Assembly: GCA_964462265.1 (NCBI GenBank)
Contig: CAYWXW010000003.1
Span: 2,868 to 56,929 of the forward strand
From: an uncultured Porticoccaceae bacterium
GTDB taxonomy: Bacteria; Pseudomonadota; Gammaproteobacteria; Pseudomonadales; Porticoccaceae
Length of the DNA: 54,062 nt
Direction: 5' to 3'
Under the pieces are notes generated by a model, which was not told the DNA's origin, made no database searches, and worked only from the letters and a program-made list of their open reading frames with translations. Made by a program: the position numbers and the translations under genes. Shown here in pieces: positions 16,555 to 33,632 of this stretch. How positions within the stretch are numbered: the first letter of the stretch is position 1; every line of letters starts with the position of its first letter.

Positions 16555-17010
16555 TTACCATTCCATTATTTTAATATTATTATTACGACTTTCTTGATAT
16601 GTGAGTACTTTAAATTTTATATACTCATCCGTAATAAAAATTGTATTTTCCTTACCAGATTGATCTAAATAAACCCACTCTTTTAGATCATCATTATTTA
16701 TGATTTTGATTAGATCATATTTAACTAATATTTGAGCTATTTTATTACGCAGTCTTAAATTTCTCTCATTTATATTACTATAGTCAGAATGATCTAATGC
16801 ATACATTTCTGACCAATGTACAATATAATATTTATTGCGTCTATGATATAAGTAACATTCCTGTATATATACATCATCTTTTAGTGTGCATATTCTAGCA
16901 ATTGTTTCCCTAACTAATCTATAACCATTTTCATTGATAAATTTAATTTCAATAAAATTTGATAATAATAAAAAATCATTTGATTTAGCTTCTATCGTTT
17001 TTGAAAACAT
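16555..17010 (-). CDS. regA: translational repressor RegA
   Basis: VRETIARICTLKDDVYIQECYLYHRRNKYYIVHWSEMYALD aligns with T4 RegA VKETLTRMGI...YQSCHILQKKGLYYIVHFKEMLRMD, and RNKIAQILVKYDLIKI aligns with RRDSIAWLLEDWGLIEI. The likely start is ATG 17010, which overlaps the gp47 3' end by 26 nt. Confidence 0.85.
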   Translation of the reverse strand: MFSKTIEAKSNDFLLLSNFIEIKFINENGYRLVRETIARICTLKDDVYIQECYLYHRRNKYYIVHWSEMYALDHSDYSNINERNLRLRNKIAQILVKYDLIKIINNDDLKEWVYLDQSGKENTIFITDEYIKFKVLTYQESRNNNIKIMEW

Positions 17011-18022
17011 AAAATCTCTTTTTAACCTCTTCCTCGATATCATCATCTAAAATCAAAGTATTAAAAAAATCTATTTCATTTTCTTCATTTGATTTATTTT
17101 CAACTTCTATTTCTTCAAAAGCAAATTCTTTATTTCTGAAGAAATATTTAACGTCAATTGGTTTATAATTCACATTTACATAGTTTATAATTTTATTTAT
17201 AACATCATTATCATCACTATCTATTGATATTTTAACTTTCTTATTATCAATATTATCAATTACATCAAGCCAATTATCATTATCAAATTCCTTAATATAT
17301 AATTCAATAAAAATATCATCATGCATATATACTGATTTTAGTTCTCTTTTATTATTTAAAATAAAGGTTTCATGATTTGTACCCTCACCAAATTTTGTTT
17401 GATATGGTGATCCCAAGTATACAACATTACGCTTTGTTTGATTTAAATGATAATGACCTGATATTACTTTATCATATTTATTATAAGTAGATCTTTTAAG
17501 CTGACTTGATGTCATAATATATTTATCATTAGTCTGAAATCCGCTCAATTCAAAATGACCCAGTAAAATATAATCACTTTTATTATATTTCATTATATCT
17601 GATATTATTTTTTCATTATTTTCTTTTGGTATCCATGGACATAAAACAATTTTTTCATCATCTAATACCAAAACATCATCTTGAATGAATCTAACATCAC
17701 ATTTGATCTGATTGCTAGCATACTCAAATATTTCTTTAGCTGAGAATATATCATTAACATTGTGATATGTTGAGTCATGATTTCCCATAATAAAATAAAA
17801 GTGATCCACCAATTCCATCATTTTATAATATAATGGTGTGAATATTGCTAAAGATTTATAATGCATATAAGATCTTTTATCACTCCAATCACCCAATATA
17901 ATAACTCTTTTAATTTTTTGAGTTTCTATTATATCAATCATATTATTTAAATATTTAATCGCATAATGTGTTAGAAAAGTATCGTCATTATGATGTAAAT
18001 CTGTCATTAATAATGTTTTCAT
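16985..18022 (-). CDS. gp47: recombination nuclease subunit (T4 gp47, Mre11/SbcD-like)
   Basis: Calcineurin-like phosphoesterase motifs: DLHH, ILGDWSD, MGNHD, LLGHFEL, SGHYH. ATG 18022 forms a TAATG overlap with the upstream gene. Confidence 0.88.
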   Translation of the reverse strand: MKTLLMTDLHHNDDTFLTHYAIKYLNNMIDIIETQKIKRVIILGDWSDKRSYMHYKSLAIFTPLYYKMMELVDHFYFIMGNHDSTYHNVNDIFSAKEIFEYASNQIKCDVRFIQDDVLVLDDEKIVLCPWIPKENNEKIISDIMKYNKSDYILLGHFELSGFQTNDKYIMTSSQLKRSTYNKYDKVISGHYHLNQTKRNVVYLGSPYQTKFGEGTNHETFILNNKRELKSVYMHDDIFIELYIKEFDNDNWLDVIDNIDNKKVKISIDSDDNDVINKIINYVNVNYKPIDVKYFFRNKEFAFEEIEVENKSNEENEIDFFNTLILDDDIEEEVKKRFYVFKNDRS

Positions 18023-18408
18023 TACCAAGTCCTCTTTTTACGTTTATCAATTTTTTTAATTATTACTTTTTTATTTTGAGATTTACATATATCGATCATA
18101 TGTGCTGTACCTGTTGATTTACCATCCCAAAAAGCAATAACAACATCACATATATTTGCCATTTGCATATTCCTAACTAATCCTGCTGATTTATCATATT
18201 TAACCCAATCAGCTTTATATTCAACAAAATTAATTTTATGTTCATTAGCATATCGCATTGCTAATGTATCAGCTCCTATAGCACCACCACTTATTATTTT
18301 TAAAACATTCTTAGTACTAAATATTTTATCTAATATTGCTTCCAAATAACGATAATCTTTAAAAGATCTTGACCCGACTACCGCATAAATTAATGGTTTA
18401 TTATACAT
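18022..18408 (-). CDS. SLOG-superfamily protein (DUF2493/YspA-like)
   Basis: VVGSRSF...ISGGAIGADTLAMRYA...ADWVKYDKSAGLVRN...AFWDGKSTGTAHM fits the GGAxGAD Rossmann signature of DUF2493 as I recall it. Confidence 0.7.
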   Translation of the reverse strand: MYNKPLIYAVVGSRSFKDYRYLEAILDKIFSTKNVLKIISGGAIGADTLAMRYANEHKINFVEYKADWVKYDKSAGLVRNMQMANICDVVIAFWDGKSTGTAHMIDICKSQNKKVIIKKIDKRKKRTW

Positions 18409-18439
18409 TTTTAAATCTCCTTCATAGCAACAAAATTTA

Positions 18440-19309
18440 TTACCAATTTCTCTTTTTACGATCCTTTTTACTTAACCTAAATACTCTTTTATCCCTAACC
18501 TCATTAAATCTTTCATTTATATAATCAGTTGGTATACCCATAGAAGCTCTTTGACCAACAATCCAAAATAAATCACCTTTCTGAATATATGGTATACATT
18601 TAGCTTCATAAATTGGATCTAACAAAATATCATTAAAATATGTAAATTCTTCTTTTTTATAATATTCATGATATGGTGAGTCTGATTTAATTAATTGTAC
18701 TCTTTTTCTCCAATTACGAGGTGCATATTTATCTAATCTTTCTTTTGGATCTGCACCAACTACTATACCAATAACTGGAATATTAATTTTAAGATCAATT
18801 AGACCCCATAACACTCCAGCCAAAGACATACCTGATCCAACAGGCATAACAATTCTTTTTATTTGATTTGGAATATGTTTAAGTTGTTTACGAGTTTGAT
18901 TAATAGCTTCAATAGTTTCCATACCAAAAGGTATTTCTTTATAACCATATTTACGAGCGGCTATTCTTGATCGATTAATTATAACTAAATTATAACCAGC
19001 TTCAACTTGATAAACAGTTGCACCATGAACAACTGCTAATTTAACCTCTGGCATTAATTCACCCTCTGGTGTAAAAACAATAGCAGGTATATTTAATCTA
19101 TTAGCAATCTCCGCAACAATATTAACTTGTGGTGATGATCTACTACCAGCAGTAACTAAACCCTTAGTTTTTTGTGCTAGATACCAACAAGAGCGAACTT
19201 TACCACCACATGATTTACCTATTTTAAATAAATCATCTCTTTTAAAATAAATACCATTCCTAAATTCTACTGGTGTTATTTCAATTGGTTCATATATTTT
19301 ATTTTCCAT
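18440..19309 (-). CDS. PLP-dependent enzyme, ACC deaminase / D-cysteine desulfhydrase family-like
   Basis: FKRDDL...CGGKVRS (the PLP-lysine context of KRDD..GGNKxRK), LVTAGSRSSPQ, MPVGSGMSLAG and ILLDPIYEAK are collinear with E. coli DcyD blocks. Confidence 0.7.
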   Translation of the reverse strand: MENKIYEPIEITPVEFRNGIYFKRDDLFKIGKSCGGKVRSCWYLAQKTKGLVTAGSRSSPQVNIVAEIANRLNIPAIVFTPEGELMPEVKLAVVHGATVYQVEAGYNLVIINRSRIAARKYGYKEIPFGMETIEAINQTRKQLKHIPNQIKRIVMPVGSGMSLAGVLWGLIDLKINIPVIGIVVGADPKERLDKYAPRNWRKRVQLIKSDSPYHEYYKKEEFTYFNDILLDPIYEAKCIPYIQKGDLFWIVGQRASMGIPTDYINERFNEVRDKRVFRLSKKDRKKRNW

Positions 19310-19602
19310 TAGTTAATGTCCTCAATCTTTGTATCATTGATAAAAATATCAAATATTATTTCAACCTCTAAAGAATTTTTTTCAATAATCATCTCACTGA
19401 CAGCAAAACTTATTAAACCAACTTTTTTTATTAGAAAATCATGAATGTTATCTAAATTATTTTTAACTAATAATTCATCATATATTTTATAATCTTCCTC
19501 AGATAATATATTTTGTATGATATTCTTAACTCTCGATTCTAAATTTTTATGAAACTCATCAAAAATGACTTCCATCATATTTAATTTTATATTATGGCTC
19601 AT
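19309..19602 (-). CDS. hypothetical protein
   Basis: 97-aa ORF with overlapping stop/start on both sides. Confidence 0.5.
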   Translation of the reverse strand: MSHNIKLNMMEVIFDEFHKNLESRVKNIIQNILSEEDYKIYDELLVKNNLDNIHDFLIKKVGLISFAVSEMIIEKNSLEVEIIFDIFINDTKIEDIN

Positions 19603-19799
19603 ACAAATTTATAATTATAATCATCAATAAAACTTATGATAAGTGTTTCCGGTATTCTTATACCACAACCCTTACATATGTAACCATCTTTTAGTTCATT
19701 CTTAATTAAAAGATTATTCTTTGAGCTCAAGAAATCAAAATTTTCCATATGACAAAAAGGGCAATCAAATCCAATTTTTTTCATTTTATATTTACGCAT
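19599..19799 (-). CDS. small zinc-ribbon protein
   Basis: CPFC...CKGC. The track start is a TTG; ATG 19799 follows AGGAG. Confidence 0.55.
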   Translation of the reverse strand: MRKYKMKKIGFDCPFCHMENFDFLSSKNNLLIKNELKDGYICKGCGIRIPETLIISFIDDYNYKFV

Positions 19800-19830
19800 A
19801 AATTCTCCTAACAACAAAATATCAAAATAT

Positions 19831-20787
19831 CTATAAGATATTTATATCTAAATATATATCATTAATTAATGTTGTGTCAACTTTATTATTATAAATCTGT
19901 TGTATAATTATTGGTTCATATTTATTTTTATTTTTATGTAGTCCTTTATCATTAACGCTAGCACCAATATTCATTTGAACATCTAATTTATCATAAGTAA
20001 ATATATAATAATTTAACCAATACTCAGCAACTTTATTCATAACAAAAGCATTAATATCATATTTCCAGTTAATTTTATAATTCTTTACTGGCATCGTTAA
20101 AATTAACTCATTACCATAATTTTCAACAATCATATATGCTAAAATATCATTATTTGAATTTTCTACGTATGTGATATATGCTGGTTTAAAATTATTTAGA
20201 TTATTTAGATAATATTTAATTCCTTTCATATTTTTATGATGCTTTATCCAATAATCTGTAATTTTTATTAATCTACGCATGGTTAAAGGATCAACTCTAC
20301 GTGTAGTCTCAACTCTTAATTGACCATTTTCCACAAGTTGATTATTTTTATTGATATATGTTCTAACTCGACCCCATTTTTTGCCTTTCATTAAACATAT
20401 CTTTTTAGCAGAATATATAAACTCATCATTTCCTTTATCAATCATGAGATTGTCAATATCTAAACCATAAATAATTACATCATCTATTGTTAATTTAGTT
20501 TTCACACCAATTAATGCTAAATCATTTATAATTTCTAACTCAAGTTTTCTATCATTATTTTTTGTAATTGGTGGTACTAAAAGATAAACATATTTATTAT
20601 TCATTATATGCCCTCTTTTAAAAATCAAAAGAGCTTTTTTATAAAAAGTATATATAAATTTTTTTGATTGTGTTAAATACATAAACGATTTATAGAAACG
20701 ATTATTTAGATTATTATAATATTGTGAATATTTTTCTAAATCATCAAACTCTATATGTTTAAATTTTAGTTCATTTAAAAATGACAT
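19831..20787 (-). CDS. DUF2156 / MprF C-terminal-like (aminoacyl-tRNA-dependent transferase fold) protein, paralog A
   Basis: EFIYSAKKICLMKGKKWGRVRTYINK and NIGASVNDKGLHKNKNKYEP resemble the DYIY..L..L.GKK..KRN.IN.F and N.E.D.G.eGLRkAK.SY.P blocks of DUF2156 as I remember them. ATG 20787 (GGAG upstream) forms a TAATG overlap with paralog B. Confidence 0.5.
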   Translation of the reverse strand: MSFLNELKFKHIEFDDLEKYSQYYNNLNNRFYKSFMYLTQSKKFIYTFYKKALLIFKRGHIMNNKYVYLLVPPITKNNDRKLELEIINDLALIGVKTKLTIDDVIIYGLDIDNLMIDKGNDEFIYSAKKICLMKGKKWGRVRTYINKNNQLVENGQLRVETTRRVDPLTMRRLIKITDYWIKHHKNMKGIKYYLNNLNNFKPAYITYVENSNNDILAYMIVENYGNELILTMPVKNYKINWKYDINAFVMNKVAEYWLNYYIFTYDKLDVQMNIGASVNDKGLHKNKNKYEPIIIQQIYNNKVDTTLINDIYLDINIL

Positions 20788-21842
20788 TATTTTCTCCAAG
20801 TAGATTTTAAGCGTGGATTTGTTATCTTGAGTTTTAAATCCTTTAATAATTTAAATTTATCAAAATTTTTCATTATTAATGATGTATCTGATTCTTTCTT
20901 ATAATGTTTAAGTACTTTAATTGGTTTATATTTCATTTTTTGTTTTTTAAGCTTCCCATTAAAACCACAATAACCTAAATTTATTAAAAAATGATTCCCT
21001 ATTTTATTATACCAATTATCAATACCTCTAAGCAAAATCATCTCATTAGCTTCGGGTAATAAATTATAATCATAATGTCTATAACCAGTTGTTGATAAAA
21101 TATGATCATTTGATATTTTTTCTGTTAATTCATATACAAGTTGTTGTTCACTTTGAACATCATGTATCGATAGATATTGAAACAAATCTAAATTATTGAT
21201 GTCTTTATGATATCGCTTAATATATGCTGATGGGTCTTCCCAAATACGATTATTATTATTTTTCCATCTATTTAACCAATGATCAAGAAGATCTAATGAT
21301 TTACTAATTGTATTATTGGAAGGATTTGTTATAAACAAATTTTCCATTAGATTAATATTTAATTGCTTCTCATATTGATTCTTACGCCATCTAAGTTTTT
21401 TAAAATCTTTACCTTTGAGTTCAATAAGCTTTTCAGAACTAGCAATATAATCATCAAAAGTTGATAAATATTTCCAATCACTATAATTATACCTTTCCAT
21501 ATCTTCTTCAGATATAATTATATTAACACCATGATTTGATAAGTAATCTATTATATCTTTTTCTTTATTGATATCACCATTTTTATTAATTGGTGCAGAA
21601 GATAGAGTTATAGACCCACCTTTTTTTCTCTTATATATTGATAAATTAAAATATAAAAAAGTATCATCAACTATTGTATAAAAATATTTTTCCTGACAAT
21701 ATAAATCTAAAAAACTCATACGTGAGGTTGAATAATCATGTGACTCAAAATATTTATCAAAATACTTTTGAATCTCTAAATGCTTATCAATTGATGGTTT
21801 TTTTATATCAAGATTGTTGAAAAAATCTATAAATTCTTTCAT
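20787..21842 (-). CDS. DUF2156 / MprF C-terminal-like protein, paralog B
   Basis: DDYIASSEKLIELKGKDFKKLRWRKNQ and INLGYCGFNGKLKKQKMKYKP align with the same blocks in paralog A. Confidence 0.5.
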   Translation of the reverse strand: MKEFIDFFNNLDIKKPSIDKHLEIQKYFDKYFESHDYSTSRMSFLDLYCQEKYFYTIVDDTFLYFNLSIYKRKKGGSITLSSAPINKNGDINKEKDIIDYLSNHGVNIIISEEDMERYNYSDWKYLSTFDDYIASSEKLIELKGKDFKKLRWRKNQYEKQLNINLMENLFITNPSNNTISKSLDLLDHWLNRWKNNNNRIWEDPSAYIKRYHKDINNLDLFQYLSIHDVQSEQQLVYELTEKISNDHILSTTGYRHYDYNLLPEANEMILLRGIDNWYNKIGNHFLINLGYCGFNGKLKKQKMKYKPIKVLKHYKKESDTSLIMKNFDKFKLLKDLKLKITNPRLKSTWRK

Positions 21843-22506
21843 ATGAGTTATCCCCTAAATAAAATCTTATCTCTTTTTCAAATTCAATGTATATTGGTTT
21901 TTGTAAAATAAAACCATCTTTTGTACCACTCATACAAGGCATATATTTAACACTTTCCCAAAATCTTGATAGTTTATTAATAGGATCATTATCATCTATA
22001 GTTTTACTAAAAATAAAATATCTATGATCATCTAAAACTATAATATCTAACGGAAATAAAGCACAAGATATTGGTTTATATTTTAAAGGATGATCACCAT
22101 GATCAACTGCATATTTTTGTAATACACACCCTTTCATACTTGAGTTTATATCTTGCATCATAATACAATGATTTTTGTTTTCATTATCTTTTAATTCTTT
22201 TATAATATTAGACTTATTAAATATTTGTTTTATATTCGTTTTAATATCTTTATAATCTAAATCCTTTAAAATTATCTTAATCATATTTTTATAATCATCG
22301 GTAACTTTAAATGGAGAACCATTACAACATCCATATTTTTTAGGACATAAATAACAATTTAAACTTATACCATTTGCTAATGATATTTTATCAAAAATTA
22401 AATTTTTATCTTTAATTAACCGATCACCATTATTATGAATGAAATCATAAACTCTATTAATTGTAACTTTTCTTAATTTTCGATTTTCTAACCCAAAATA
22501 ATGCAT
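21808..22506 (-). CDS. cysteine-cluster protein (YkgJ/CxxCxxCC-type putative Fe-S or Zn domain)
   Basis: CYLCPKKYGCCNGSPF matches the CxxCxxCC family pattern. Further conserved Cys residues lie downstream. Confidence 0.5.
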   Translation of the reverse strand: MHYFGLENRKLRKVTINRVYDFIHNNGDRLIKDKNLIFDKISLANGISLNCYLCPKKYGCCNGSPFKVTDDYKNMIKIILKDLDYKDIKTNIKQIFNKSNIIKELKDNENKNHCIMMQDINSSMKGCVLQKYAVDHGDHPLKYKPISCALFPLDIIVLDDHRYFIFSKTIDDNDPINKLSRFWESVKYMPCMSGTKDGFILQKPIYIEFEKEIRFYLGDNSYERIYRFFQQS

Positions 22507-22763
22507 TAGTCTTTCTCAACATATTTTTTTAATTTATAATAATAGTCTTTTCTTTCATTTAAATGAGCCAATGCAATTTCGAGAGCAACCATTGCATCAG
22601 TAGTATGCTCAAATTCAATCTGCATACCTTCACACAGATCAGATGGTTTAAATTTTGATATATCAGATTTTTTAACTTTACTCCCCTTTAAAGAAGTCTT
22701 AAAGTTATCAATGTTTATATTAAATCTTGCTTCTATCTCTAATTTAGCTTCTTTAAACCCCAT
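22506..22763 (-). CDS. small conserved phage protein (DUF5661-like)
   Basis: GMQIEFEHTTDAMVALEIALAHLNERKDYYYKLKK resembles the E.EHT...A..IA.DHL.E...YY..L motif. Confidence 0.45.
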   Translation of the reverse strand: MGFKEAKLEIEARFNINIDNFKTSLKGSKVKKSDISKFKPSDLCEGMQIEFEHTTDAMVALEIALAHLNERKDYYYKLKKYVEKD

Positions 22764-22766
22764 AAT

Positions 22767-23903
22767 TTACTCCTTTATAAAAACATAAATTCTTTCAAAT
22801 TTAAAACCAAACTTATCTTGAGTTCTTTCGTTTACATCTTTATTACGCATAAAAGGTGATTTATTTAGTTTTTGATTTAATATCTCATCTATCTTAAATC
22901 CTGTCTGTTTTGCAATGGAGAGCGTATCTTTCTCTAATGGGTATATCTTACCCTTAATAGTAACATCAGCAATGTTTATAACCAAACGTCCACCTTTTTT
23001 GAGTAAATACCACTGATTTTGAATCATAGGTAACAAAAAACCATCAATCCAATCATTATAATCATCACCATGTTTTAGATGATGTTGATTTTCATCACTT
23101 GAATATATTTCTTTTATAAAATAAGGTGGTGATGAAAAACATAGATCAAAATATTCCTTATATTTTTTTGGTCTAAAATCTTCAGCAGGACATTCGATAA
23201 AATCAAATTTTTTCTTACGAAATCCTTTCTTAGAATATGCTTTAACAATCATATCGTAAGATTTAAAATTTTTATGATTAACATCAACACCAACATATTC
23301 TTTACAACTAGAAGCTAAAAAACCAACAAGTCTCGCACCCCACCCCATTGAAAAATCAAAAACCTTGCCACGTCTACCATATAATTCATAAATTATTTTT
23401 GCAATATCCGGTTTATAATTATATGTAAAATAACCACCTGATAAAGATCTCAAAAATTTACGAAAAAATTTCATAGTTTTCTCATGCGATCTAAAAATTT
23501 TTTTATCTCTCAAAAACTTATCAAGCAATTTTTGCATTTTTATAGGATCATGCCATATATCATATAAAGATGGTTTATCATGTGATCTTGCTTCCCACAT
23601 ATGTTTAAAGAAAACATTTGCTAAAAGAACAAATGATACATTACCCCAATTTAGAAATTTCTCACCTTTTATAATTTCTATTTTATCAATAACACTCATT
23701 TGTTCTAATTTTTTGAAAAGACTTCTATAATCATTATCATCATTCCAATCTTCCCAATATATACCAAAATCAATTAACTCTTGAATATTATTTTTAAATA
23801 TATCCAATGGTATATTAGCCTTTGGTATTAAACCCATATTATATTTTTGTAATATATTTTGTTTCTCTTTTTCTGTATATTGCTTTGAAATATATTTTGG
23901 CAT
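22767..23903 (-). CDS. SAM-dependent methyltransferase with SPPY motif (putative DNA N4-C/N6-A methyltransferase)
   Basis: Motif I VFDFSMGWGARL, followed by motif IV CFSSPPYF. Confidence 0.6.
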   Translation of the reverse strand: MPKYISKQYTEKEKQNILQKYNMGLIPKANIPLDIFKNNIQELIDFGIYWEDWNDDNDYRSLFKKLEQMSVIDKIEIIKGEKFLNWGNVSFVLLANVFFKHMWEARSHDKPSLYDIWHDPIKMQKLLDKFLRDKKIFRSHEKTMKFFRKFLRSLSGGYFTYNYKPDIAKIIYELYGRRGKVFDFSMGWGARLVGFLASSCKEYVGVDVNHKNFKSYDMIVKAYSKKGFRKKKFDFIECPAEDFRPKKYKEYFDLCFSSPPYFIKEIYSSDENQHHLKHGDDYNDWIDGFLLPMIQNQWYLLKKGGRLVINIADVTIKGKIYPLEKDTLSIAKQTGFKIDEILNQKLNKSPFMRNKDVNERTQDKFGFKFERIYVFIKE

Positions 23904-23921: not shown

Positions 23922-24911
23922 CTACAAATAACTTGATATTTCTTTTAAAAAATTAACCATATTTGAGTTTGTTCGCATACACATAAAATTATTAGTATCA
24001 TAAATAGTAATTGCGCCAATTACATCAAATATATGTTTTTTAGCAAATTTATCTAAATTATCTTCAACTAACTTAAAAATTTCATTTACTGCATGATCAC
24101 CTACATATTTATATAAGCTCTCATGTTTGCCATCTTTTAAAATTTCTTTTAATCCATCAAAATCACCTTTAAAATCGTTAAAATAAATTTGTTTGGGTAT
24201 TTTATAAACCATAGAACCATCAACTTCTGTATATGCATTTGTAATAGCTATATTTTGTATTGTTTGTATTAATCTACGCATATCACAGCTATTATCAATA
24301 TATTCATATATAAATTCTCTCAAAGTTGATTTATCTACTATTACAACACCTTCCATTTTACATATTTGTCTTATACGTCTAAATAAAGGTTTTTTAATCT
24401 CTTCAATCTCTTCTTTAGTAAAGTTAAAATTAATTTCTACCAATCTTGACTCTCTAATAGGTGCAATTATCTTATGCGGTTCATTTGCTGTAAATAAAAA
24501 TATAACTCTACGAGAATGTTTCTCCATCATGCTACGCAATCCTGCTTGTAGCTGTGGTGTCATGCTATCGGCTTCTTCCAATATAACAATACGAGGTTTA
24601 TTATTACGGAGACCTCTCTCACAATAATCTTTTAGTGTTCCTCTCAAAACATCAATACCTCTATCATCAGATGCATTAATAACTAAAGTCTCCCATTTAA
24701 GAGTTTTAGCTAAAGCAAAAGCACTGGTGCTTTTACCTGATCCCTGACGACCAGAAAATATCATACTCTGTACTTGACCAGAAGCAACCATATTAGCAAA
24801 CATTGATGAATATCTTTTAGGTAAAATTACATCATTAATATTATTTGGTCTATATTTTTGAACCCATGTCATCTCATTAGATTGTTTATCTGTAATCTTT
24901 AAATCTGCCAT
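23922..24911 (-). CDS. gp44: sliding-clamp loader large subunit (T4 gp44, RFC-like AAA+)
   Basis: WVQKYRPNNINDVILP, P-loop GRQGSGKST, Walker B ILEEAD, and ESRL. Confidence 0.9.
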   Translation of the reverse strand: MADLKITDKQSNEMTWVQKYRPNNINDVILPKRYSSMFANMVASGQVQSMIFSGRQGSGKSTSAFALAKTLKWETLVINASDDRGIDVLRGTLKDYCERGLRNNKPRIVILEEADSMTPQLQAGLRSMMEKHSRRVIFLFTANEPHKIIAPIRESRLVEINFNFTKEEIEEIKKPLFRRIRQICKMEGVVIVDKSTLREFIYEYIDNSCDMRRLIQTIQNIAITNAYTEVDGSMVYKIPKQIYFNDFKGDFDGLKEILKDGKHESLYKYVGDHAVNEIFKLVEDNLDKFAKKHIFDVIGAITIYDTNNFMCMRTNSNMVNFLKEISSYL

Positions 24912-28409: not shown

Positions 28410-29516
28410 TTAAATTTTCGTTAATAAAATTTTCTCAATATTATCATAATCCCAATATGGTATAATAACTAATTTAATCCCATTTTTATTTGCGTAATCT
28501 TTTTTTATATTATCTCTTAATTGACTCAATCTAAATTTATTATTATTATTTATGTTACCAAATGAATTATTATTATAATGCTGTTCACCATTATATTCTA
28601 TTAAAATTTGTTGATCAGGTATATAAAAATCAAAAATCAGCTGTTTCTTAAATATACAATCTTTAAATTTCATTTGATGTATATATTTAATTTTCATTTC
28701 CTTTAAAATTTTAATAATCCGCATCTCACCTTTAGATGATTTACATAGTGGACAACCATTACCTCTTTTATGATCTGATAAAACTTGTTCAAATTCTCCA
28801 TGTTTAGGGCATATAATTTTTATTTTTGATGTTGCTCTTAAATTAGGATAATTATATTTTGGATAATTATATTTACCATTATGTATTAATTTACATTCAT
28901 TAATATGTTCATCAAAACTCATTAAATAATTATTAGAGCATAATTTACACCCGTTTCCTTCTAAATGTGATGATAATCTTTGTTTAAATATCCCATGCTT
29001 AGGACATTTAATTTTAACATACTCATTAGCCTTGATACCTTTTTTAATTAAAGAATAATCATATTTATTATTATGAATTTTATTTGCAAGATTTATATAA
29101 TAATCACGTTTCTTTCTTGACTTTGATAATTTTTCAATTCCGCATTTAGGACAACCATAACCATTAATATGTGACGATAATCTTTGTTTAAACCATCCGT
29201 GCTTAGGACATTTAATCATTATTTTATCTTTACACGTTTTTATATCTTGATATTTTGGATAGTGATAAAAATTATCATGTTTTACTTTAGCTTCATTTAT
29301 ATAATCTTGATAACTTTTATCTTTTATATTTGGGTTGCAAGTAGGGCAGATTGCACCAGATTTATGATGTGATAAAAATTGATAAAAAACACCATGTAAA
29401 GGACAAATGATTTGTATTTTTTTATTAGTTATGAATTTTTGATTTAAAGGATACTTATAAAAATAATCATGTTGCAAATTACATTCATGTATATGTTTTT
29501 CCTTAGATTTTTTCAT
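28410..29516 (-). CDS. homing-endonuclease-like protein: four zinc-ribbon repeats plus a Vsr/DUF559-type PD-(D/E)XK nuclease motif
   Basis: Four repeats of I.CP.HG.F.Q.L..H..G.GCP.C, then EMRIIKILKEMKIKYIHQ...LIFDFYIPDQQILIEYNGEQHY. Confidence 0.6.
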   Translation of the reverse strand: MKKSKEKHIHECNLQHDYFYKYPLNQKFITNKKIQIICPLHGVFYQFLSHHKSGAICPTCNPNIKDKSYQDYINEAKVKHDNFYHYPKYQDIKTCKDKIMIKCPKHGWFKQRLSSHINGYGCPKCGIEKLSKSRKKRDYYINLANKIHNNKYDYSLIKKGIKANEYVKIKCPKHGIFKQRLSSHLEGNGCKLCSNNYLMSFDEHINECKLIHNGKYNYPKYNYPNLRATSKIKIICPKHGEFEQVLSDHKRGNGCPLCKSSKGEMRIIKILKEMKIKYIHQMKFKDCIFKKQLIFDFYIPDQQILIEYNGEQHYNNNSFGNINNNNKFRLSQLRDNIKKDYANKNGIKLVIIPYWDYDNIEKILLTKI

Positions 29517-31054
29517 TATTTTTTAACTTTAAAATTACCAACAAGATTAAAATCATAGCTATGATTTTTATAATATTTTAATCGATCATATCTATGACGA
29601 TAACATATACCCCCATATAAAAGTTCTTTTCTTTTAAAAAATAACTTATCTATTAAATCATAAATTATAACAATATTTTTACCTTTATATAATCTCATTC
29701 CACGACCAATTGCCTGTAATATGACTTGTTTTGATAAAACATCCTCAACCATATAAACAAAAAAGATATTATTGATACTTATACCCTCACCAAAAGTTTT
29801 AAACGACCCTACAACAACCTGATTGTCTTTTCGGTCTAGTTGTTTTTGTATTAATAACCTCTTTTTGTTTGGTATAGTACCATCCACGTAATGAATATCT
29901 TTATTTGGGAAACATTTAGTTAATTCATCATATAATTTCTTACCATATGATCTTTGTTTAAATAATATTATTGCGTTATGATGTGTTTTAGAAAGTTTTT
30001 TAATTATATAATCAATTTTACCCATTTTTTTAGCATAATATTTCAATTCCTCATCATAAGACATTGTTTTATTTTTCAATACACCATAATCAAATATAAC
30101 ACCTTTTATTTTTACCTTAGCAACATATTTATTCTCTTGTAAATATTTTGATGTTGTTGCTACTTTAACTCGACCATATAAACCTTCTATTGTTTTTCTT
30201 TTTAGTATCTCTACCTCATCCTCAGTAAAGATACTACCAGTTAAACCAATTCTATACACAGCATTTTTACATGATTGTACTATCTCAATAATCTTCTTTA
30301 CACTAACACTCAATTTGTTATCATCTGCTGAGTTATGAACCTCATCAACAAAAAGATATTTAAACATTTTAAAAAAATCAGGATCAAAATTTTGAAAACT
30401 CTGCCATGTACCAACTATGATTTTATGATGATCTTCAATGATCTTATCATACTCTGAATGAACCATTTTAATATATTTTTTTATATTATCTTCATTATTT
30501 AAATCATATTTTTCAAAATCTTTATATAACTGATCGACTAATTGTGTACGTGGAACTATTATTAATATTCTTTTATTAACTCTAACCTTATTAATGAATA
30601 ACTTACATAAACCATATGTGCTTAATGTTTTACCTGATGATGTTGGTGATATTATTGTTAATCTTTTTAGATTAAAACCCATCAAAATTGTTTTATATTG
30701 ATAATCTCTTAAAGGATAATATGGTTTAGGTAAATTCCATTTTTTGACTATTTTCTTTAAATCAGTAAGATTTAACTTACTGCCTTTGATTTTTAGATTA
30801 GGAGCAATATACACGTCATTATATTCAAGAGTTCGTATAAATCTCTTTAACTCATAAAATAAACCATAAGGCAGTAAGTGTCTTTCTTCGAGCAGAGTAA
30901 TATCATAAATCTTTTTATTTTTATAACCAGTCTCTTTATTTTCTTTATATACTTCTTTTTTATAAGTAAAATACTTTTCAATCTTATCAATTAGATTTGT
31001 ATCATCACTTTCAAGTTCAATATAATTATTATTTTTCTTACGTATATAAAGCAT
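29516..31054 (-). CDS. uvsW: SF2 DNA/RNA helicase (T4 UvsW-like)
   Basis: LRDYQ, SPTSSGKT, FVDEVHN, LTGS and QAIGRGMR. IVGTWQSF parallels T4 VVGTWQTV. Confidence 0.85.
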   Translation of the reverse strand: MLYIRKKNNNYIELESDDTNLIDKIEKYFTYKKEVYKENKETGYKNKKIYDITLLEERHLLPYGLFYELKRFIRTLEYNDVYIAPNLKIKGSKLNLTDLKKIVKKWNLPKPYYPLRDYQYKTILMGFNLKRLTIISPTSSGKTLSTYGLCKLFINKVRVNKRILIIVPRTQLVDQLYKDFEKYDLNNEDNIKKYIKMVHSEYDKIIEDHHKIIVGTWQSFQNFDPDFFKMFKYLFVDEVHNSADDNKLSVSVKKIIEIVQSCKNAVYRIGLTGSIFTEDEVEILKRKTIEGLYGRVKVATTSKYLQENKYVAKVKIKGVIFDYGVLKNKTMSYDEELKYYAKKMGKIDYIIKKLSKTHHNAIILFKQRSYGKKLYDELTKCFPNKDIHYVDGTIPNKKRLLIQKQLDRKDNQVVVGSFKTFGEGISINNIFFVYMVEDVLSKQVILQAIGRGMRLYKGKNIVIIYDLIDKLFFKRKELLYGGICYRHRYDRLKYYKNHSYDFNLVGNFKVKK

Positions 31055-31955: not shown

Positions 31956-33632
31956 TTAATATATATATACAGCATTACCACAATCAAATATTCTTAGATA
32001 ATCATTATTCAACATATTTTGATAACCAGATAAATTAGGATTAAAATTATCCAATATTTTTTCCTGTTTATGTTTTTGAAATTTAAGACGAGAATGTAAA
32101 ATTAATGTATTTTTCTTAAAATAAAAATAATTTGGTTGAGATATTTTTAGTAACTTAAAATTTGATTTAAGATAGCTTTCTCCAGTAAAATATCTTAAAT
32201 CAACATAAGAAATAATTGATGTTGATTTAAGATCATTTACTATAAATTTAATTAATTTAGAAAACCCACCAATAACACTAAATTGCTTAATAGTAAAAGA
32301 TCTTAATATTTCATAATCATAATTTTTATTATATCTCGATTTACCCATAGACATAATATATACTGGCTTATTTTCATAATATAAAGCATATATTTTATCT
32401 GATCTTATATAACCTTGTAGATGGTTCTCTTTAACTAATTTTTTATATAAATCATTATTGATTATTTTAACCTCACACTTACGAGCATATATTTTAATTT
32501 TATTTAAATTTAACCTATTAAAAAGAATTGATTTTACAATGTTATTTTTTAAAATCCATTCATTTTGAAATATATGTATAATATCTATGTTAAAATTTTT
32601 CTTAAAAAACTCACTTTTATCTTTATGATAATTTTTTGATTTTAACTGATCATTATGCCAATATATACCGTCGTATTCAATTCCTAATTTATAATCAGGT
32701 AAATAAACATCGATCTCTAAAGATTTTGAATTAAATGAAAATCTTTTATTATATATTACTTTAATACCATAGCTTTGAATAAATACACCTATTTCTTTTT
32801 CAGCTTTAGATTTACCATATTTATTACATTTTGAACATCCATGTCCGTGTTTATGATTATCTAAAGATTGTTTAAACCAACCATGATTTGGACATTTTAT
32901 CATAATTTTCGTAAAAACACCATCATCTAACTCTTGATATTTAGGATAATGATAAAAGTTCTCATGTGCTTTTTTACAAACCTCTATATTATCACTATAA
33001 GATAATAAACTATTTTTGGTTCTTTTATCATAAGCACATTTAGGGCAACCTTGTCCGCTTAAATGATTTTGTATATTTTGCCTAAAATTTCCATGTATAG
33101 GACATTTTATAACTATATAATCACTACAATTATCTATTTCTTGATTTTTTGGATAGATATAAAAATTATTATGAATTTCTTTAAATCTTTCAATATAATC
33201 ATAATAAGTTTTTTTATGCGTATTTATTAAATTCTCTTTAAAACAATCTTTACAACCAGAATTACCGCTAGCATGTAAACGAACTTTCACCTTAAATTTA
33301 CCATGCTTTGGGCATATAACACTAATTATACTATTATGATTCTTTATTTCTTGATTTTTTGGATAAATGTATTTATTACCATAAACATCTTTAAATTTTA
33401 TTAAATAATCTTCATATTTTTTTACTTTTCTTTTTTTATTACCACATTTAGGACAACCTTGACCACTTAAATGATTCCTTAGAGTTTGTTCAAATTCTCC
33501 ATGTTTAGGGCATATTATCTTTATTTTTGTATTATTATTTTCTATTTCTTGATTTTTTGGATAGATATAAAAATTATTATGAATATCTTTAGCTTTAATT
33601 ATATATTCTTTATATGTTTTCTTTTTAGGCAT
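31956..33632 (-). CDS. homing-endonuclease-like protein (zinc-ribbon repeats, Vsr/DUF559-type nuclease motif, Hef-like C-terminal domain)
   Basis: Four CP.HG.F...H.SGQGCPKC-type repeats paralogous to those in 28410-29516. Then EKEIGVFIQSYGIKV...LEIDVYLPDYKLGIEYDGIYWHN, and ARKCEVKII...ENHLQGY...GGFSKL...SYVDLRYFTGESY, as in T-even Hef-like proteins. Confidence 0.6.
   Translation of the reverse strand: MPKKKTYKEYIIKAKDIHNNFYIYPKNQEIENNNTKIKIICPKHGEFEQTLRNHLSGQGCPKCGNKKRKVKKYEDYLIKFKDVYGNKYIYPKNQEIKNHNSIISVICPKHGKFKVKVRLHASGNSGCKDCFKENLINTHKKTYYDYIERFKEIHNNFYIYPKNQEIDNCSDYIVIKCPIHGNFRQNIQNHLSGQGCPKCAYDKRTKNSLLSYSDNIEVCKKAHENFYHYPKYQELDDGVFTKIMIKCPNHGWFKQSLDNHKHGHGCSKCNKYGKSKAEKEIGVFIQSYGIKVIYNKRFSFNSKSLEIDVYLPDYKLGIEYDGIYWHNDQLKSKNYHKDKSEFFKKNFNIDIIHIFQNEWILKNNIVKSILFNRLNLNKIKIYARKCEVKIINNDLYKKLVKENHLQGYIRSDKIYALYYENKPVYIMSMGKSRYNKNYDYEILRSFTIKQFSVIGGFSKLIKFIVNDLKSTSIISYVDLRYFTGESYLKSNFKLLKISQPNYFYFKKNTLILHSRLKFQKHKQEKILDNFNPNLSGYQNMLNNDYLRIFDCGNAVYIY

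What the first reader, a model, noticed from the sequence alone, without database searches (positions are those of the whole stretch)
18022..19309. SLOG (DUF2493-like) protein paired with an ACC-deaminase/DcyD-family PLP enzyme inside the replication module
The 128-aa SLOG protein has a GGAIGAD Rossmann signature. The 289-aa PLP enzyme has KRDDL...GGK(V)R, a TAGS block and an LLDPIYEAK block. The two genes are adjacent between gp47 and the rest of an accessory island. Neither belongs to the T4 core. SLOG proteins are nucleotide or base-processing modules, and PLP enzymes of this fold perform beta/gamma elimination or replacement. PLP enzymes are known parts of phage thymidine hypermodification pathways. 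However, I see no dUMP hydroxymethylase or 5-hmdU DNA kinase in this window, so that link is speculative. The pair could make or destroy a small-molecule or nucleotide signal, or it could modify nucleotides.
Basis: partly seen in the sequence, partly recalled or inferred. Interest (0 to 1): 0.6.

Follow-up and report, generated by a model that had tools for sequence, protein, structure and literature searches.

The report
PLP enzyme partners methyltransferase, not SLOG

Summary
18022-18408(-) encodes a 128-aa YAcAr/SLOG protein. 18440-19309(-) encodes a 289-aa fold-type II PLP enzyme whose nearest solved folds are D-cysteine desulfhydrase and ACC deaminase.

The pairing is not supported. No SLOG gene lies near the PLP gene in 80 viral loci, 13 genome loci or a 60%-identical relative, and none is found in five complete phage genomes that carry a PLP homologue. 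A 22-nt direct repeat brackets the SLOG gene, which has its own upstream motif and is coupled to gp47.

The PLP gene ends a tightly packed eight-gene block running to the SPPY methyltransferase-like gene at 22767-23903. In most relatives this PLP domain is fused into or next to that methyltransferase family. One protein also fuses in a DUF2156 domain like the window's two paralogues.

By profile, the PLP enzyme is closer to Salmonella phage ViI gp226 than to DcyD or ACC deaminase. gp226 decarboxylates amino acids attached to DNA.

My reading is an unfused DNA hypermodification cassette. Its chemistry is inferred, not shown. This scan had already flagged the methyltransferase-PLP module on four other genomes and in this window's DUF2156 finding. 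I found no paper describing it.

The parts
18022..18408 (-). SLOG (YAcAr/DUF2493) protein, 128 aa. It is a minimal DprA-like Rossmannoid domain with an extra basic tail ...IDKRKKRTW. Its stop overlaps the gp47 ATG (TAATG).
   Evidence: Pfam and PHROG matches. Fold. Only P0122 among the homologues examined shares the tail. Sequence read.
18021..18042 (-). Copy 2 of a 22-nt direct repeat, CGTAAAAAGAGGACTTGGTAAT. It encodes the RKKRTW-stop tail of SLOG and a Shine-Dalgarno-like AAGAGGA in front of gp47.
   Evidence: Only two copies in the window, none expected by chance. Alignment.
18423..18434 (-). TTTGTTGCTATG motif in the 31-nt gap between PLP and SLOG, followed by AAGGAG and the SLOG ATG. It is a candidate regulatory signal of the SLOG gene.
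   Evidence: 8 copies in the window against 0.01 expected. Sequence read.
18439..18460 (-). Copy 1 of the 22-nt direct repeat, CGTAAAAAGAGAAATTGGTAAT. It encodes the RKKRNW-stop tail of the PLP enzyme.
   Evidence: The tail is conserved in PLP relatives P0002-P0004 and L085.
18440..19309 (-). Fold-type II PLP enzyme, 289 aa. It has a ~255-aa core plus a ~35-aa helical and basic C-terminal extension. The predicted PLP lysine is K37.
   Evidence: It matches phrog_3650 (the family of ViI gp226) at E 3.6e-27. hhalign to gp226 gives 98% probability. The active-site set is conserved in 73 of 74 relatives.
19309..19602 (-). 97-aa ORF with no family match, overlapping the PLP start by 1 nt. The position is conserved in relative L085.
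19599..19817 (-). 72-aa zinc-ribbon-like ORF (CPFC...CKGC). It is conserved in L085.
19831..20799 (-). DUF2156 / MprF-C-like (aminoacyl-tRNA transferase fold) paralogue 1.
   Evidence: Pfam PF09924 scores 35.4 bits against 27.5. L085 has a 46%-identical homologue in the same position. An HMM built from these proteins hits the fused protein P0297 at E 1.3e-16.
20787..21842 (-). DUF2156 / MprF-C-like paralogue 2.
   Evidence: Pfam PF09924 scores 33.6 bits against 27.5. 25% identical to paralogue 1.
21808..22506 (-). 232-aa cysteine-cluster protein with a weak DUF3109 resemblance.
   Evidence: Pfam PF11307 E 2.4e-4, below the cut-off. Some fused MTase-PLP proteins give similar sub-threshold DUF3109 hits. 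This link is weak.
22506..22763 (-). 85-aa DUF5661 protein.
   Evidence: Pfam PF18905 scores 39 bits against 27.
22767..23903 (-). 378-aa DNA amino-methyltransferase-like protein. Motif I is FDFSMGWG and motif IV is SSPPY. It is a divergent member of the family that partners the PLP domain elsewhere.
   Evidence: phrog_12517 E 6.6e-14. hhalign against 12 unfused partner methyltransferases gives 96.4% probability, E 1.1e-9. jackhmmer seeded with it reaches the partner in 66 of 80 PLP loci. PF01555 scores 31.1 bits in a six-frame search. PADLOC MTase_II E 1.8e-12.

Best explanation
The two genes belong to different units.

(1) The PLP enzyme is the last gene of an eight-gene block with overlapping or nearly abutting reading frames (23903 down to 18440). 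The block runs: SPPY methyltransferase-like, DUF5661, Cys-cluster protein, two DUF2156 aminoacyl-tRNA-transferase-like paralogues, zinc ribbon, 97-aa ORF, PLP. I read it as an unfused form of a widespread phage DNA-modification module. In most phages that module is one polypeptide: [ParB]-methyltransferase with the PLP domain inserted between SAM-binding motif I and catalytic motif IV, or appended to it.

Inferred mechanism: the methyltransferase-like enzyme flips out a base and attaches a group that carries a free alpha-amino group to its exocyclic amine. The most economical candidate is the 3-amino-3-carboxypropyl end of SAM. The PLP enzyme, like its relative ViI gp226, then forms a Schiff base through K37 with that DNA-borne amine and trims it, most likely by decarboxylation to an aminopropyl group. 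The two DUF2156 enzymes may add amino acids from charged tRNA to the product.

Shown here: the homologies, the fusions and the gene order. Inferred: the substrate, the reaction type and the order of steps.

(2) The SLOG gene is a minimal DprA/ShosA-like Rossmannoid protein of a family very common in phage replication modules. It sits in a 418-bp unit bracketed by a 22-nt direct repeat, has its own upstream motif and ribosome-binding site, and is translationally coupled to gp47. It most likely arrived by recombination in the 3' tail of the PLP gene. It probably serves replication or recombination by binding ssDNA or a nucleotide, not PLP chemistry.

The confidence of 0.6 is for the assignment: PLP belongs with the methyltransferase-like and DUF2156 genes in a DNA-modification cassette, and SLOG is not its partner. 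I put the specific chemistry of aminocarboxypropyl transfer followed by decarboxylation at about 0.3.
For: Partner of the PLP enzyme:
- Of 74 viral loci with a PLP ORF, 49 fuse it to the motif-IV half of a PF01555/phrog_12517 methyltransferase. Nine have that methyltransferase within 300 bp and seven more within about 4 kb.
- A search for longer homologues found 447. Of the best 120, 113 carry both PLP and the methyltransferase half, in inserted (89) and appended (about 18) arrangements. One is fused to a Dam-type methyltransferase instead, and a SET-PLP fusion also exists.
- The window's methyltransferase-like gene belongs to that partner family.

DUF2156 link:
- P0297 is ParB-MTase(I)-PLP-DUF2156-MTase(IV). 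Its DUF2156 part matches an HMM of the window's paralogues at E 1.3e-16.
- Jumbo-phage contig L027 has PLP, DUF2156, a class I methyltransferase and a second DUF2156 with overlapping frames.
- Relative L085 keeps DUF2156-ZnR-ORF100-PLP.

Type of PLP enzyme:
- phrog_3650, whose core member is ViI gp226 (E 2.5e-241), matches at E 3.6e-27. PALP gives 5e-12 and ACC_deam_rel scores 41.6 bits against a cut-off of 289.
- hhalign to gp226 gives 98% probability, E 1.5e-13. To M6 gp52 it gives 75%, and gp52 K36 aligns with K37.
- The SPQ and GYN motifs are shared with gp226, and Y-(E/D)-x-K with gp52.
- gp226 and gp52 are shown decarboxylases of amino-acid-nucleobase conjugates in DNA (PMC8989533).
- A homologue in phage Montesquieu lies next to an aGPT-Pplase2 amino acid:DNA transferase.

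SLOG independence:
- No SLOG in 80 viral PLP loci or in 13 genome loci, and PF10686 rings in none of 5 complete PLP-carrying phage genomes while the own-genome control rings.
- L085 has PLP directly followed by gp47.
- The nearest viral SLOG relatives lie by primase and topoisomerase with no PLP gene.
- SLOG is found in 1318 phage records, PLP in 8.
- Repeat, motif and coupling to gp47.
Against: - In this phage PLP and the methyltransferase-like gene are 3.4 kb and six ORFs apart.
- The methyltransferase-like protein is divergent. It has SPPY where 66 of 71 partners have CPPY, and hmmscan of the exact ORF gave no Pfam family at E <= 0.01.
- Eight of the 74 viral loci and 6 of 13 genome loci show PLP without a detectable partner within 6-8 kb.
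- No chemistry is shown. The nearest solved folds are eliminating deaminases, not decarboxylases.
- An earlier check in this scan reports that most members of the methyltransferase family lack a PLP partner, so that enzyme may simply methylate.
- The SLOG-PLP adjacency and both W-ended basic tails seem to be kept in one relative: P0003 and P0122 are each seen on a single 6430-bp Logan contig, probably the same one. The tail may therefore be a shared functional peptide rather than a recombination scar.
- The phage is uncultured, and the rest of its genome may not be in the assembly.
Confidence: 0.6

Rival explanations
1. The methyltransferase simply methylates DNA, and the PLP enzyme is a helper acting on the cofactor rather than on DNA. 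For example, it could destroy the inhibitory product S-adenosylhomocysteine, or SAM-derived ACC or vinylglycine, by elimination and deamination, as its nearest solved relatives do.
For: The PLP domain is linked to several unrelated SAM-using folds: PF01555, Dam-type PF02086, a class I methyltransferase in L027, and SET in L078. SAM could therefore be the common denominator. The nearest solved folds are ACC deaminase, D-cysteine desulfhydrase and threonine deaminases. Y234-E235 resembles the Tyr-Glu of true ACC deaminases (from memory, not tested here). An earlier check in this scan reports that most members of the methyltransferase family have no PLP partner.
Against: The profile affinity is stronger to the DNA-acting decarboxylase gp226 than to DcyD/ACCD, and the SNH motif of DcyD/ACCD is replaced by the SPQ of gp226. 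The DUF2156 aminoacyl-transferase domains fused into or next to the module have no role in cofactor salvage. Inserting the PLP domain at the target-recognition position of the methyltransferase suggests action at the flipped base.
Confidence: 0.2
2. One reading: SLOG and PLP are a two-gene unit that makes or destroys a nucleotide or small-molecule signal, or jointly modifies nucleotides.
For: The genes are adjacent and on the same strand, and both end in a K/R-rich tail with a terminal Trp. The adjacency and both tails probably recur in one relative, P0003/P0122. YAcAr SLOG domains have been predicted to use NAD+ or nucleotides (PMC7824862).
Against: The pair is not co-conserved anywhere else tested. 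SLOG has its own upstream motif and ribosome-binding site and is coupled to gp47, while PLP is coupled to the upstream block. The shared tail is a 22-nt DNA repeat bracketing SLOG, and the other SLOG homologues examined lack it.
Confidence: 0.08
3. The PLP enzyme is an auxiliary metabolic gene acting on a free amino acid of the host, as a D-cysteine desulfhydrase, ACC deaminase or serine/threonine dehydratase, unrelated to DNA.
For: Sources name the homologues ACC deaminase/D-cysteine desulfhydrase-like. Fold and PDB sequence matches agree. Some loci have a stand-alone PLP gene without a methyltransferase.
Against: TIGR01275 scores 41.6 bits against a cut-off of 289, and all the equivalog models are far below threshold. 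The core is about 75 residues shorter than DcyD/ACCD, and the SNH motif is changed. Hundreds of fusions to DNA methyltransferases and ParB domains argue for a DNA-linked role.
Confidence: 0.07
4. The SLOG protein is an anti-defence decoy that mimics the DprA-like antitoxins ShosA or PsyrA of toxin-antitoxin defence systems.
For: PADLOC ShosA E 1.9e-9 and PsyrA E 5.8e-5. The best Foldseek hit is ShosA 8zva at TM 0.71. ShosA is a DprA-like ssDNA-binding antitoxin (PMC11961720).
Against: The ShosA match covers only 47 residues of the shared SLOG core. The protein lacks ShosA's SAM domain and about half of its Rossmann domain. DprA scores equally well.
Confidence: 0.1

Closest known systems
Salmonella phage ViI gp226 (phrog_3650) and Pseudomonas phage M6 gp52 (phrog_7093): PLP-dependent decarboxylases of thymidine hypermodification
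   Same: Same fold-type II PLP scaffold modelled on 1j0a. The PLP lysine aligns (gp52 K36 with K37). KRD, SPQ and GYN motifs are shared with gp226, and Y-(D/E)-x-K with gp52. All are phage-encoded and lie in DNA-metabolism regions.
   Different: gp226 and gp52 work after a 5-hmdU DNA kinase and an aGPT-Pplase2 amino acid:DNA transferase. With M6 queries, neither was found in the assembly that holds the window. Here the partner is an amino-methyltransferase-like enzyme plus DUF2156 proteins. Identity is low, and hhalign to gp226 covers only the first 157 columns.
D-cysteine desulfhydrase (PDB 4d8t) and ACC deaminase and homologues (1j0a, 1tzk, 1f2d)
   Same: Nearest solved folds (Foldseek E about 5e-13, TM 0.64-0.72). 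Shared features are KRDD, the GG(N)K lysine loop, the Gly-rich phosphate loop and the LDP(V/I)Y..K block.
   Different: About 250-aa core against 320-340 aa. SNH is replaced by SPQ. TIGR01275 and all equivalog models score far below their cut-offs. The domain is usually fused to DNA methyltransferases.
ParB-N6/N4 DNA methyltransferases (Pfam PF01555, phrog_12517/phrog_498)
   Same: The window's 378-aa protein aligns from motif I through motif IV to the C-terminus (hhalign 96.4%).
   Different: It has no ParB domain, SPPY instead of the partners' CPPY, motif I DFSMGWG instead of DPFAGGS, and it is not fused or adjacent to PLP.
YAcAr (PF10686) SLOG family; DprA and ShosA Rossmann domains
   Same: The Pfam score is well above the cut-off. 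The GGAxGAD, RN and AFWDG.S.GT motifs are present. The Rossmannoid fold is nearest to ShosA and DprA.
   Different: It consists of the minimal domain only (about 115 aa) plus an 11-aa basic tail seen only in this phage and P0122. No SAM or winged-helix domains. The ligand or DNA binding is untested.
MprF C-terminal domain / DUF2156 (PF09924) aminoacyl-tRNA-dependent transferases
   Same: Both window paralogues score above the Pfam cut-off.
   Different: They are soluble, phage-encoded and embedded in or fused to a DNA methyltransferase-PLP module. The acceptor is unlikely to be a lipid.

Membership tests
SLOG superfamily, YAcAr family (PF10686) | Profile score above Pfam's gathering cut-off | tested here: met
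   55.3 bits against 28.2. The six-frame control in the own genome scored 55.8 bits.
SLOG superfamily, YAcAr family (PF10686) | Rossmannoid alpha/beta fold with a Gly-rich GGxxGxD loop | tested here: met
   AF2 model pLDDT 94.3 with a beta-alpha-beta order. Foldseek hits ShosA, DprA, ThsA SLOG, MoCo carrier and YpsA. G41, G45, A46 and D47 are invariant in 31 homologues.
SLOG superfamily, YAcAr family (PF10686) | Binding or processing of a nucleotide-derived ligand or ssDNA | not testable with these tools
   This needs binding or enzyme assays.
Fold-type II PLP-dependent enzymes (PF00291) | Profile score above the cut-off, and the fold | tested here: met
   46.2 bits against 35. Foldseek TM 0.64-0.72 to DcyD, ACCD and threonine deaminases.
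Fold-type II PLP-dependent enzymes (PF00291) | Schiff-base lysine and phosphate-binding Gly-rich loop | tested here: met
   K37 aligns with the GGNK lysine of 1j0a and 4d8t and with gp52 K36. K37 is present in 73 of 74 relatives and G158 in 73 of 74, with the other loop positions (S159, G160, M161, S162) in 56-71 of 74.
ACC deaminase / D-cysteine desulfhydrase family (TIGR01275 and equivalogs) | Score above NCBIfam's curated cut-off | tested here: not met
   41.6 bits against 289.4. The DcyD, ACCD, CuyA and XcbE models score 16-32 bits against cut-offs of 429-550.
ACC deaminase / D-cysteine desulfhydrase family (TIGR01275 and equivalogs) | Ser-Asn-His active-site triplet after the TAG(A/S) strand | tested here: not met
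   It aligns to S59-P60-Q61, which is near-invariant in the phage family (72, 69 and 72 of 74).
gp226/gp52-type DNA-appended amino-acid decarboxylases (phrog_3650 / phrog_7093) | Profile-level homology to the characterised enzymes | tested here: met
   phrog_3650 E 3.6e-27, and gp226 itself scores 2.5e-241 on that profile. hhalign gives 98% to gp226 and 75% to gp52.
gp226/gp52-type DNA-appended amino-acid decarboxylases (phrog_3650 / phrog_7093) | Co-occurrence with a 5-hmdU DNA kinase and an aGPT-Pplase2 amino acid:DNA transferase | tested here: not met
   No match to M6 gp51 or gp54 in the 3.66-Mb assembly that holds the window. The only PF00303 thymidylate-synthase-family match lies on another contig. 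Caveat: single-protein queries, and the phage genome may be incomplete in the bin.
gp226/gp52-type DNA-appended amino-acid decarboxylases (phrog_3650 / phrog_7093) | Decarboxylation of an amino acid attached to a base in polymeric DNA | not testable with these tools
   This needs in vitro reconstitution and LC-MS.
Methyltransferase-PLP module (seen here and earlier in this scan; I found no paper on it) | A phrog_12517/PF01555-type methyltransferase in the same gene block | tested here: met
   22767-23903: phrog_12517 E 6.6e-14, hhalign 96.4%. It lies on the same strand, and eight ORFs with overlaps or gaps of 13 nt or less connect it to PLP.
Methyltransferase-PLP module (seen here and earlier in this scan; I found no paper on it) | PLP fused into or directly adjacent to the methyltransferase | tested here: not met
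   They are 3.4 kb apart with six ORFs between. Four viral loci show separations of 2.1-4.2 kb.

The most novel reading that the evidence does not exclude
The eight-gene block makes a DNA base modification of a new kind. A methyltransferase-like enzyme transfers the amino-acid end of SAM (or another amine-bearing group) to a base. The PLP enzyme trims it on the DNA. Two DUF2156 enzymes then extend it with amino acids taken from charged tRNA. That would be the first use of aminoacyl-tRNA in DNA modification, giving an aminoacyl- or peptidyl-decorated phage genome.
Probability: 0.2. Interest if true: 0.85.

Novelty: new variant of a known kind. Interest (0 to 1): 0.6.

Why it matters
The known PLP-dependent steps in phage DNA hypermodification all follow 5-hydroxymethyl-pyrimidine chemistry. 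Here the same kind of PLP enzyme is tied to amino-methyltransferase-like enzymes through hundreds of fusions, and in this phage also to tRNA-dependent aminoacyl-transferase-like enzymes. That points to an unexplored route to modified adenine or cytosine. Such a route would bear on how phages evade restriction and other DNA-sensing defences, on sequencing artefacts in viromes, and on enzymes for site-directed DNA functionalisation. The unfused arrangement in this window gives separate genes that can be expressed and tested one at a time. The SLOG result is a caution: adjacency inside a phage accessory island did not mean partnership here.

Tried and rejected
- I could not read the contigs of the closest PLP relatives P0002-P0005.
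- **Searches that gave little.** A single-protein scan of viral contigs found nothing. The metagenome scan gave one locus. The first genome scan gave none.
- **Thymidine-hypermodification pathway.** No homologues of M6 gp51 or gp54 in the own assembly, and one thymidylate synthase on another contig. I dropped this as the context here.
- **DUF3109-like protein as a module component.** Only sub-threshold Pfam hits in a few fused proteins, and jackhmmer found nothing. It stays a weak lead.
- **First version of the C-terminal domain HMM.** It was contaminated by long proteins and I rebuilt it.
- **Promoter and terminator scan of the block.** Counts equalled the shuffles, so it was uninformative.
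- **Literature.** Six searches found no description of a methyltransferase-PLP DNA-modification enzyme. Iyer et al. 2013 (NAR 41:7635) is not held in the library.
- **Not possible here.** The models are not exposed as coordinates, so I could not measure the geometry between the PLP and methyltransferase active sites in a fused protein.


Full report
**What is there**

The window is the replication module of an uncultured T4-like phage of about 25% G+C. It lies on contig C3 of a 3.66-Mb metagenome-assembled genome. On the minus strand, between gp47/SbcD (16985-18028) and the gp44 clamp loader (23922-24911), lie ten ORFs. The two ORFs of the finding are at the stated coordinates, and all the quoted motifs are present.

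**SLOG protein**

The 128-aa protein is a clear YAcAr/SLOG member.
- Pfam PF10686 scores 55.3 bits against a cut-off of 28.2, and phrog_289 gives E 3e-31.
- The AF2 model has pLDDT 94.3. Its nearest solved folds are ShosA (8zva, TM 0.71) and DprA (3uqz, TM 0.72). After these come methylglyoxal synthases, which are not SLOG proteins, and then ThsA SLOG, MoCo carrier proteins and YpsA.
- The family is found in 1318 phage records and is sometimes fused to helicases such as ICP1 HelB.

**PLP enzyme**

The 289-aa protein is a fold-type II PLP enzyme.
- Pfam PALP scores 46.2 bits against 35. The AF2 model has pLDDT 92.4.
- Its nearest solved folds are D-cysteine desulfhydrase 4d8t and the ACC-deaminase homologue 1j0a.
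- It is not a member of that family in the strict sense. TIGR01275 scores 41.6 bits against a cut-off of 289. The core is about 75 residues shorter. The Ser-Asn-His triplet is replaced by a near-invariant Ser-Pro-Gln.

**Is SLOG-PLP a pair? No.**

- Starting from the PLP enzyme I collected 80 viral loci and 13 prokaryotic-genome loci. None has a SLOG gene within 6-8 kb.
- PF10686 rings in 0 of 5 complete genomes of cultured phages that carry a PLP homologue, while the same search finds the window's own gene.
- A metagenomic relative with a 60%-identical PLP enzyme (L085) has DUF2156-Zn ribbon-ORF100-PLP followed directly by gp47, with no SLOG.
- The nearest viral SLOG relatives sit beside primase and topoisomerase genes with no PLP gene.

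The sequence itself separates the two genes.
- From the methyltransferase-like gene down to PLP, eight ORFs overlap or are at most 13 nt apart.
- A 31-nt gap then follows. It holds TTTGTTGCTATG, a motif with 8 copies in the window against 0.01 expected, and an AAGGAG ribosome-binding site.
- The SLOG stop overlaps the gp47 ATG (TAATG).
- The K/R-rich, Trp-ended tails of both proteins are encoded by a 22-nt direct repeat (20 of 22 identical). It occurs only twice in the window and brackets the SLOG gene.
- PLP relatives have this tail. The SLOG homologues I examined end about 11 residues earlier, with one exception.
- This fits insertion of a 418-bp SLOG cassette by recombination in the 3' end of the PLP gene.

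The exception is P0122. It is 62% identical, has the same tail, and was seen on one 6430-bp contig. That is also the contig length of PLP relative P0003. The insertion is therefore probably shared by one sister phage, and I cannot exclude that the tail is a functional peptide common to both proteins.

**What the PLP enzyme really goes with**

- *Viral loci.* In 49 of 74 viral loci with a PLP ORF, the PLP domain is part of a 560-1130-aa protein. Its order is an optional ParB_N domain, then the SAM-binding motif-I part of a PF01555 DNA methyltransferase, then PLP, then a 180-aa domain carrying motif IV (FSCPPYxDLEVYSDD). So the PLP domain is inserted where alpha-class methyltransferases carry their target-recognition domain. 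In nine more loci an intact methyltransferase of the same family (phrog_12517/phrog_498) lies within 300 bp, and in seven more within about 4 kb.
- *Wider census.* The search for longer homologues in the protein collection found 447. Of the best 120, 113 carry both parts, 89 as insertions and about 18 with PLP appended after a whole methyltransferase. The PLP domain is also fused to a Dam-type methyltransferase (P0335) and to a SET domain (L078).
- *The window's own methyltransferase-like gene.* The 378-aa protein at 22767-23903 is a divergent member of this partner family: phrog_12517 E 6.6e-14, hhalign 96.4% from motif I to the C-terminus, and jackhmmer from it reaches the partner in 66 of 80 loci. 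It has SPPY where 66 of 71 partners have CPPY.
- *DUF2156.* The two DUF2156 paralogues between PLP and the methyltransferase-like gene also belong to the set. P0297 is ParB-MTase(I)-PLP-DUF2156-MTase(IV), with E 1.3e-16 against an HMM of the window's paralogues. Jumbo-phage contig L027 has PLP, DUF2156, a class I methyltransferase and a second DUF2156 with overlapping frames.

**What the PLP enzyme is related to**

- Its best profile match is phrog_3650 (E 3.6e-27), whose core member is Salmonella phage ViI gp226.
- hhalign gives 98% probability to gp226 and 75% to Pseudomonas phage M6 gp52, whose proposed PLP lysine K36 aligns with K37.
- Both are experimentally shown PLP-dependent decarboxylases of amino acids attached to bases in polymeric DNA (PMC8989533).
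- The window enzyme shares KRD, K, R, SPQ and GYN with gp226, and Y-(D/E)-x-K with gp52. This set is conserved in 73 of 74 viral relatives, fused or not.
- A homologue in Glutamicibacter phage Montesquieu lies beside an aGPT-Pplase2 amino acid:DNA transferase. In Mycobacterium phage Vincenzo the homologue follows a ParB-like gene.
- With M6 gp51 and gp54 as queries, the assembly that holds the window has no aGPT-Pplase2 or 5-hmdU kinase homologue.

**Mechanism (inferred)**

A PLP enzyme of this kind needs a primary alpha-amine on its substrate, and a decarboxylase also needs a free carboxylate. An amino-methyltransferase-like partner that binds SAM offers the 3-amino-3-carboxypropyl group as the simplest such handle. 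Decarboxylation would leave an aminopropyl group, which the DUF2156 enzymes could acylate from aminoacyl-tRNA.

Earlier agents of this scan reached the same proposal on other DNA, so their agreement is not independent evidence. The main rival is plain methylation with the PLP enzyme acting on SAM or SAH-derived small molecules. The link to several unrelated SAM-using folds fits both readings.

**Literature and verdict**

I found no paper describing a methyltransferase-PLP DNA-modification enzyme. Iyer et al. 2013 could not be read.

The PLP gene is re-assigned to an unfused DNA hypermodification cassette that I found in no paper. This scan had already flagged the methyltransferase-PLP module on four other genomes and in this window's DUF2156 finding.

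Noticed in passing
window 18021-18042 and 18439-18460: A 22-nt direct repeat (20 of 22 identical) encodes the RKKRxW-stop tails of the SLOG and PLP proteins and brackets a 418-bp SLOG unit. It is either an insertion scar or a shared C-terminal peptide.
   Followed up: partly
window 9808, 14505, 18423, 27666, 37268 (-); 38734, 41627, 45302 (+): TTTGTTGYTAWG occurs 8 times against 0.01 expected, each time just upstream of a gene. It resembles, from memory, the T4 RegA RNA operator consensus. A regA-like gene lies at 16555-17046.
   Followed up: partly
window 18020-18028: gp47 most likely starts at the ATG that overlaps the SLOG stop (TAATG, giving MKTLLMTDLH), not at the upstream TTG listed by the ORF finder.
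   Followed up: partly
L027:7998-11481: A 257-kb jumbo-phage contig carries PLP, DUF2156, a class I SAM methyltransferase and a second DUF2156 with overlapping frames. This parallels the window's block but uses a different methyltransferase fold.
   Followed up: partly
L078:2128-3654: A SET-domain-PLP fusion (509 aa) on a contig labelled as a giant-virus MAG.
   Followed up: no
P0335 (1513 aa, metagenome): PLP domain, Dam-type D12 adenine methyltransferase and XkdF-like protease in one polypeptide.
   Followed up: no
partner methyltransferases in L003-L082, L097-L105: Motif IV reads CPPY, with Cys in place of the usual Asp/Asn/Ser, in 66 of 71 non-redundant PLP-associated methyltransferases. 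The window's protein has SPPY.
   Followed up: partly
P0124 (216 aa, metagenome): A DUF4326-SLOG fusion among the SLOG homologues. DUF4326 has been predicted to link NAD+-using systems with DNA modification (PMC7824862).
   Followed up: no
window 28410-29516 and 31956-33632: Two HNH/homing-endonuclease paralogues (phrog_559) lie either side of the helicase gene at 29516-31054 (31956-33632 is about 0.9 kb upstream of it).
   Followed up: no
L023:6588-7986: In one viral contig the stand-alone PLP gene is preceded by a ThyX-like gene and a Nudix gene rather than a methyltransferase.
   Followed up: no
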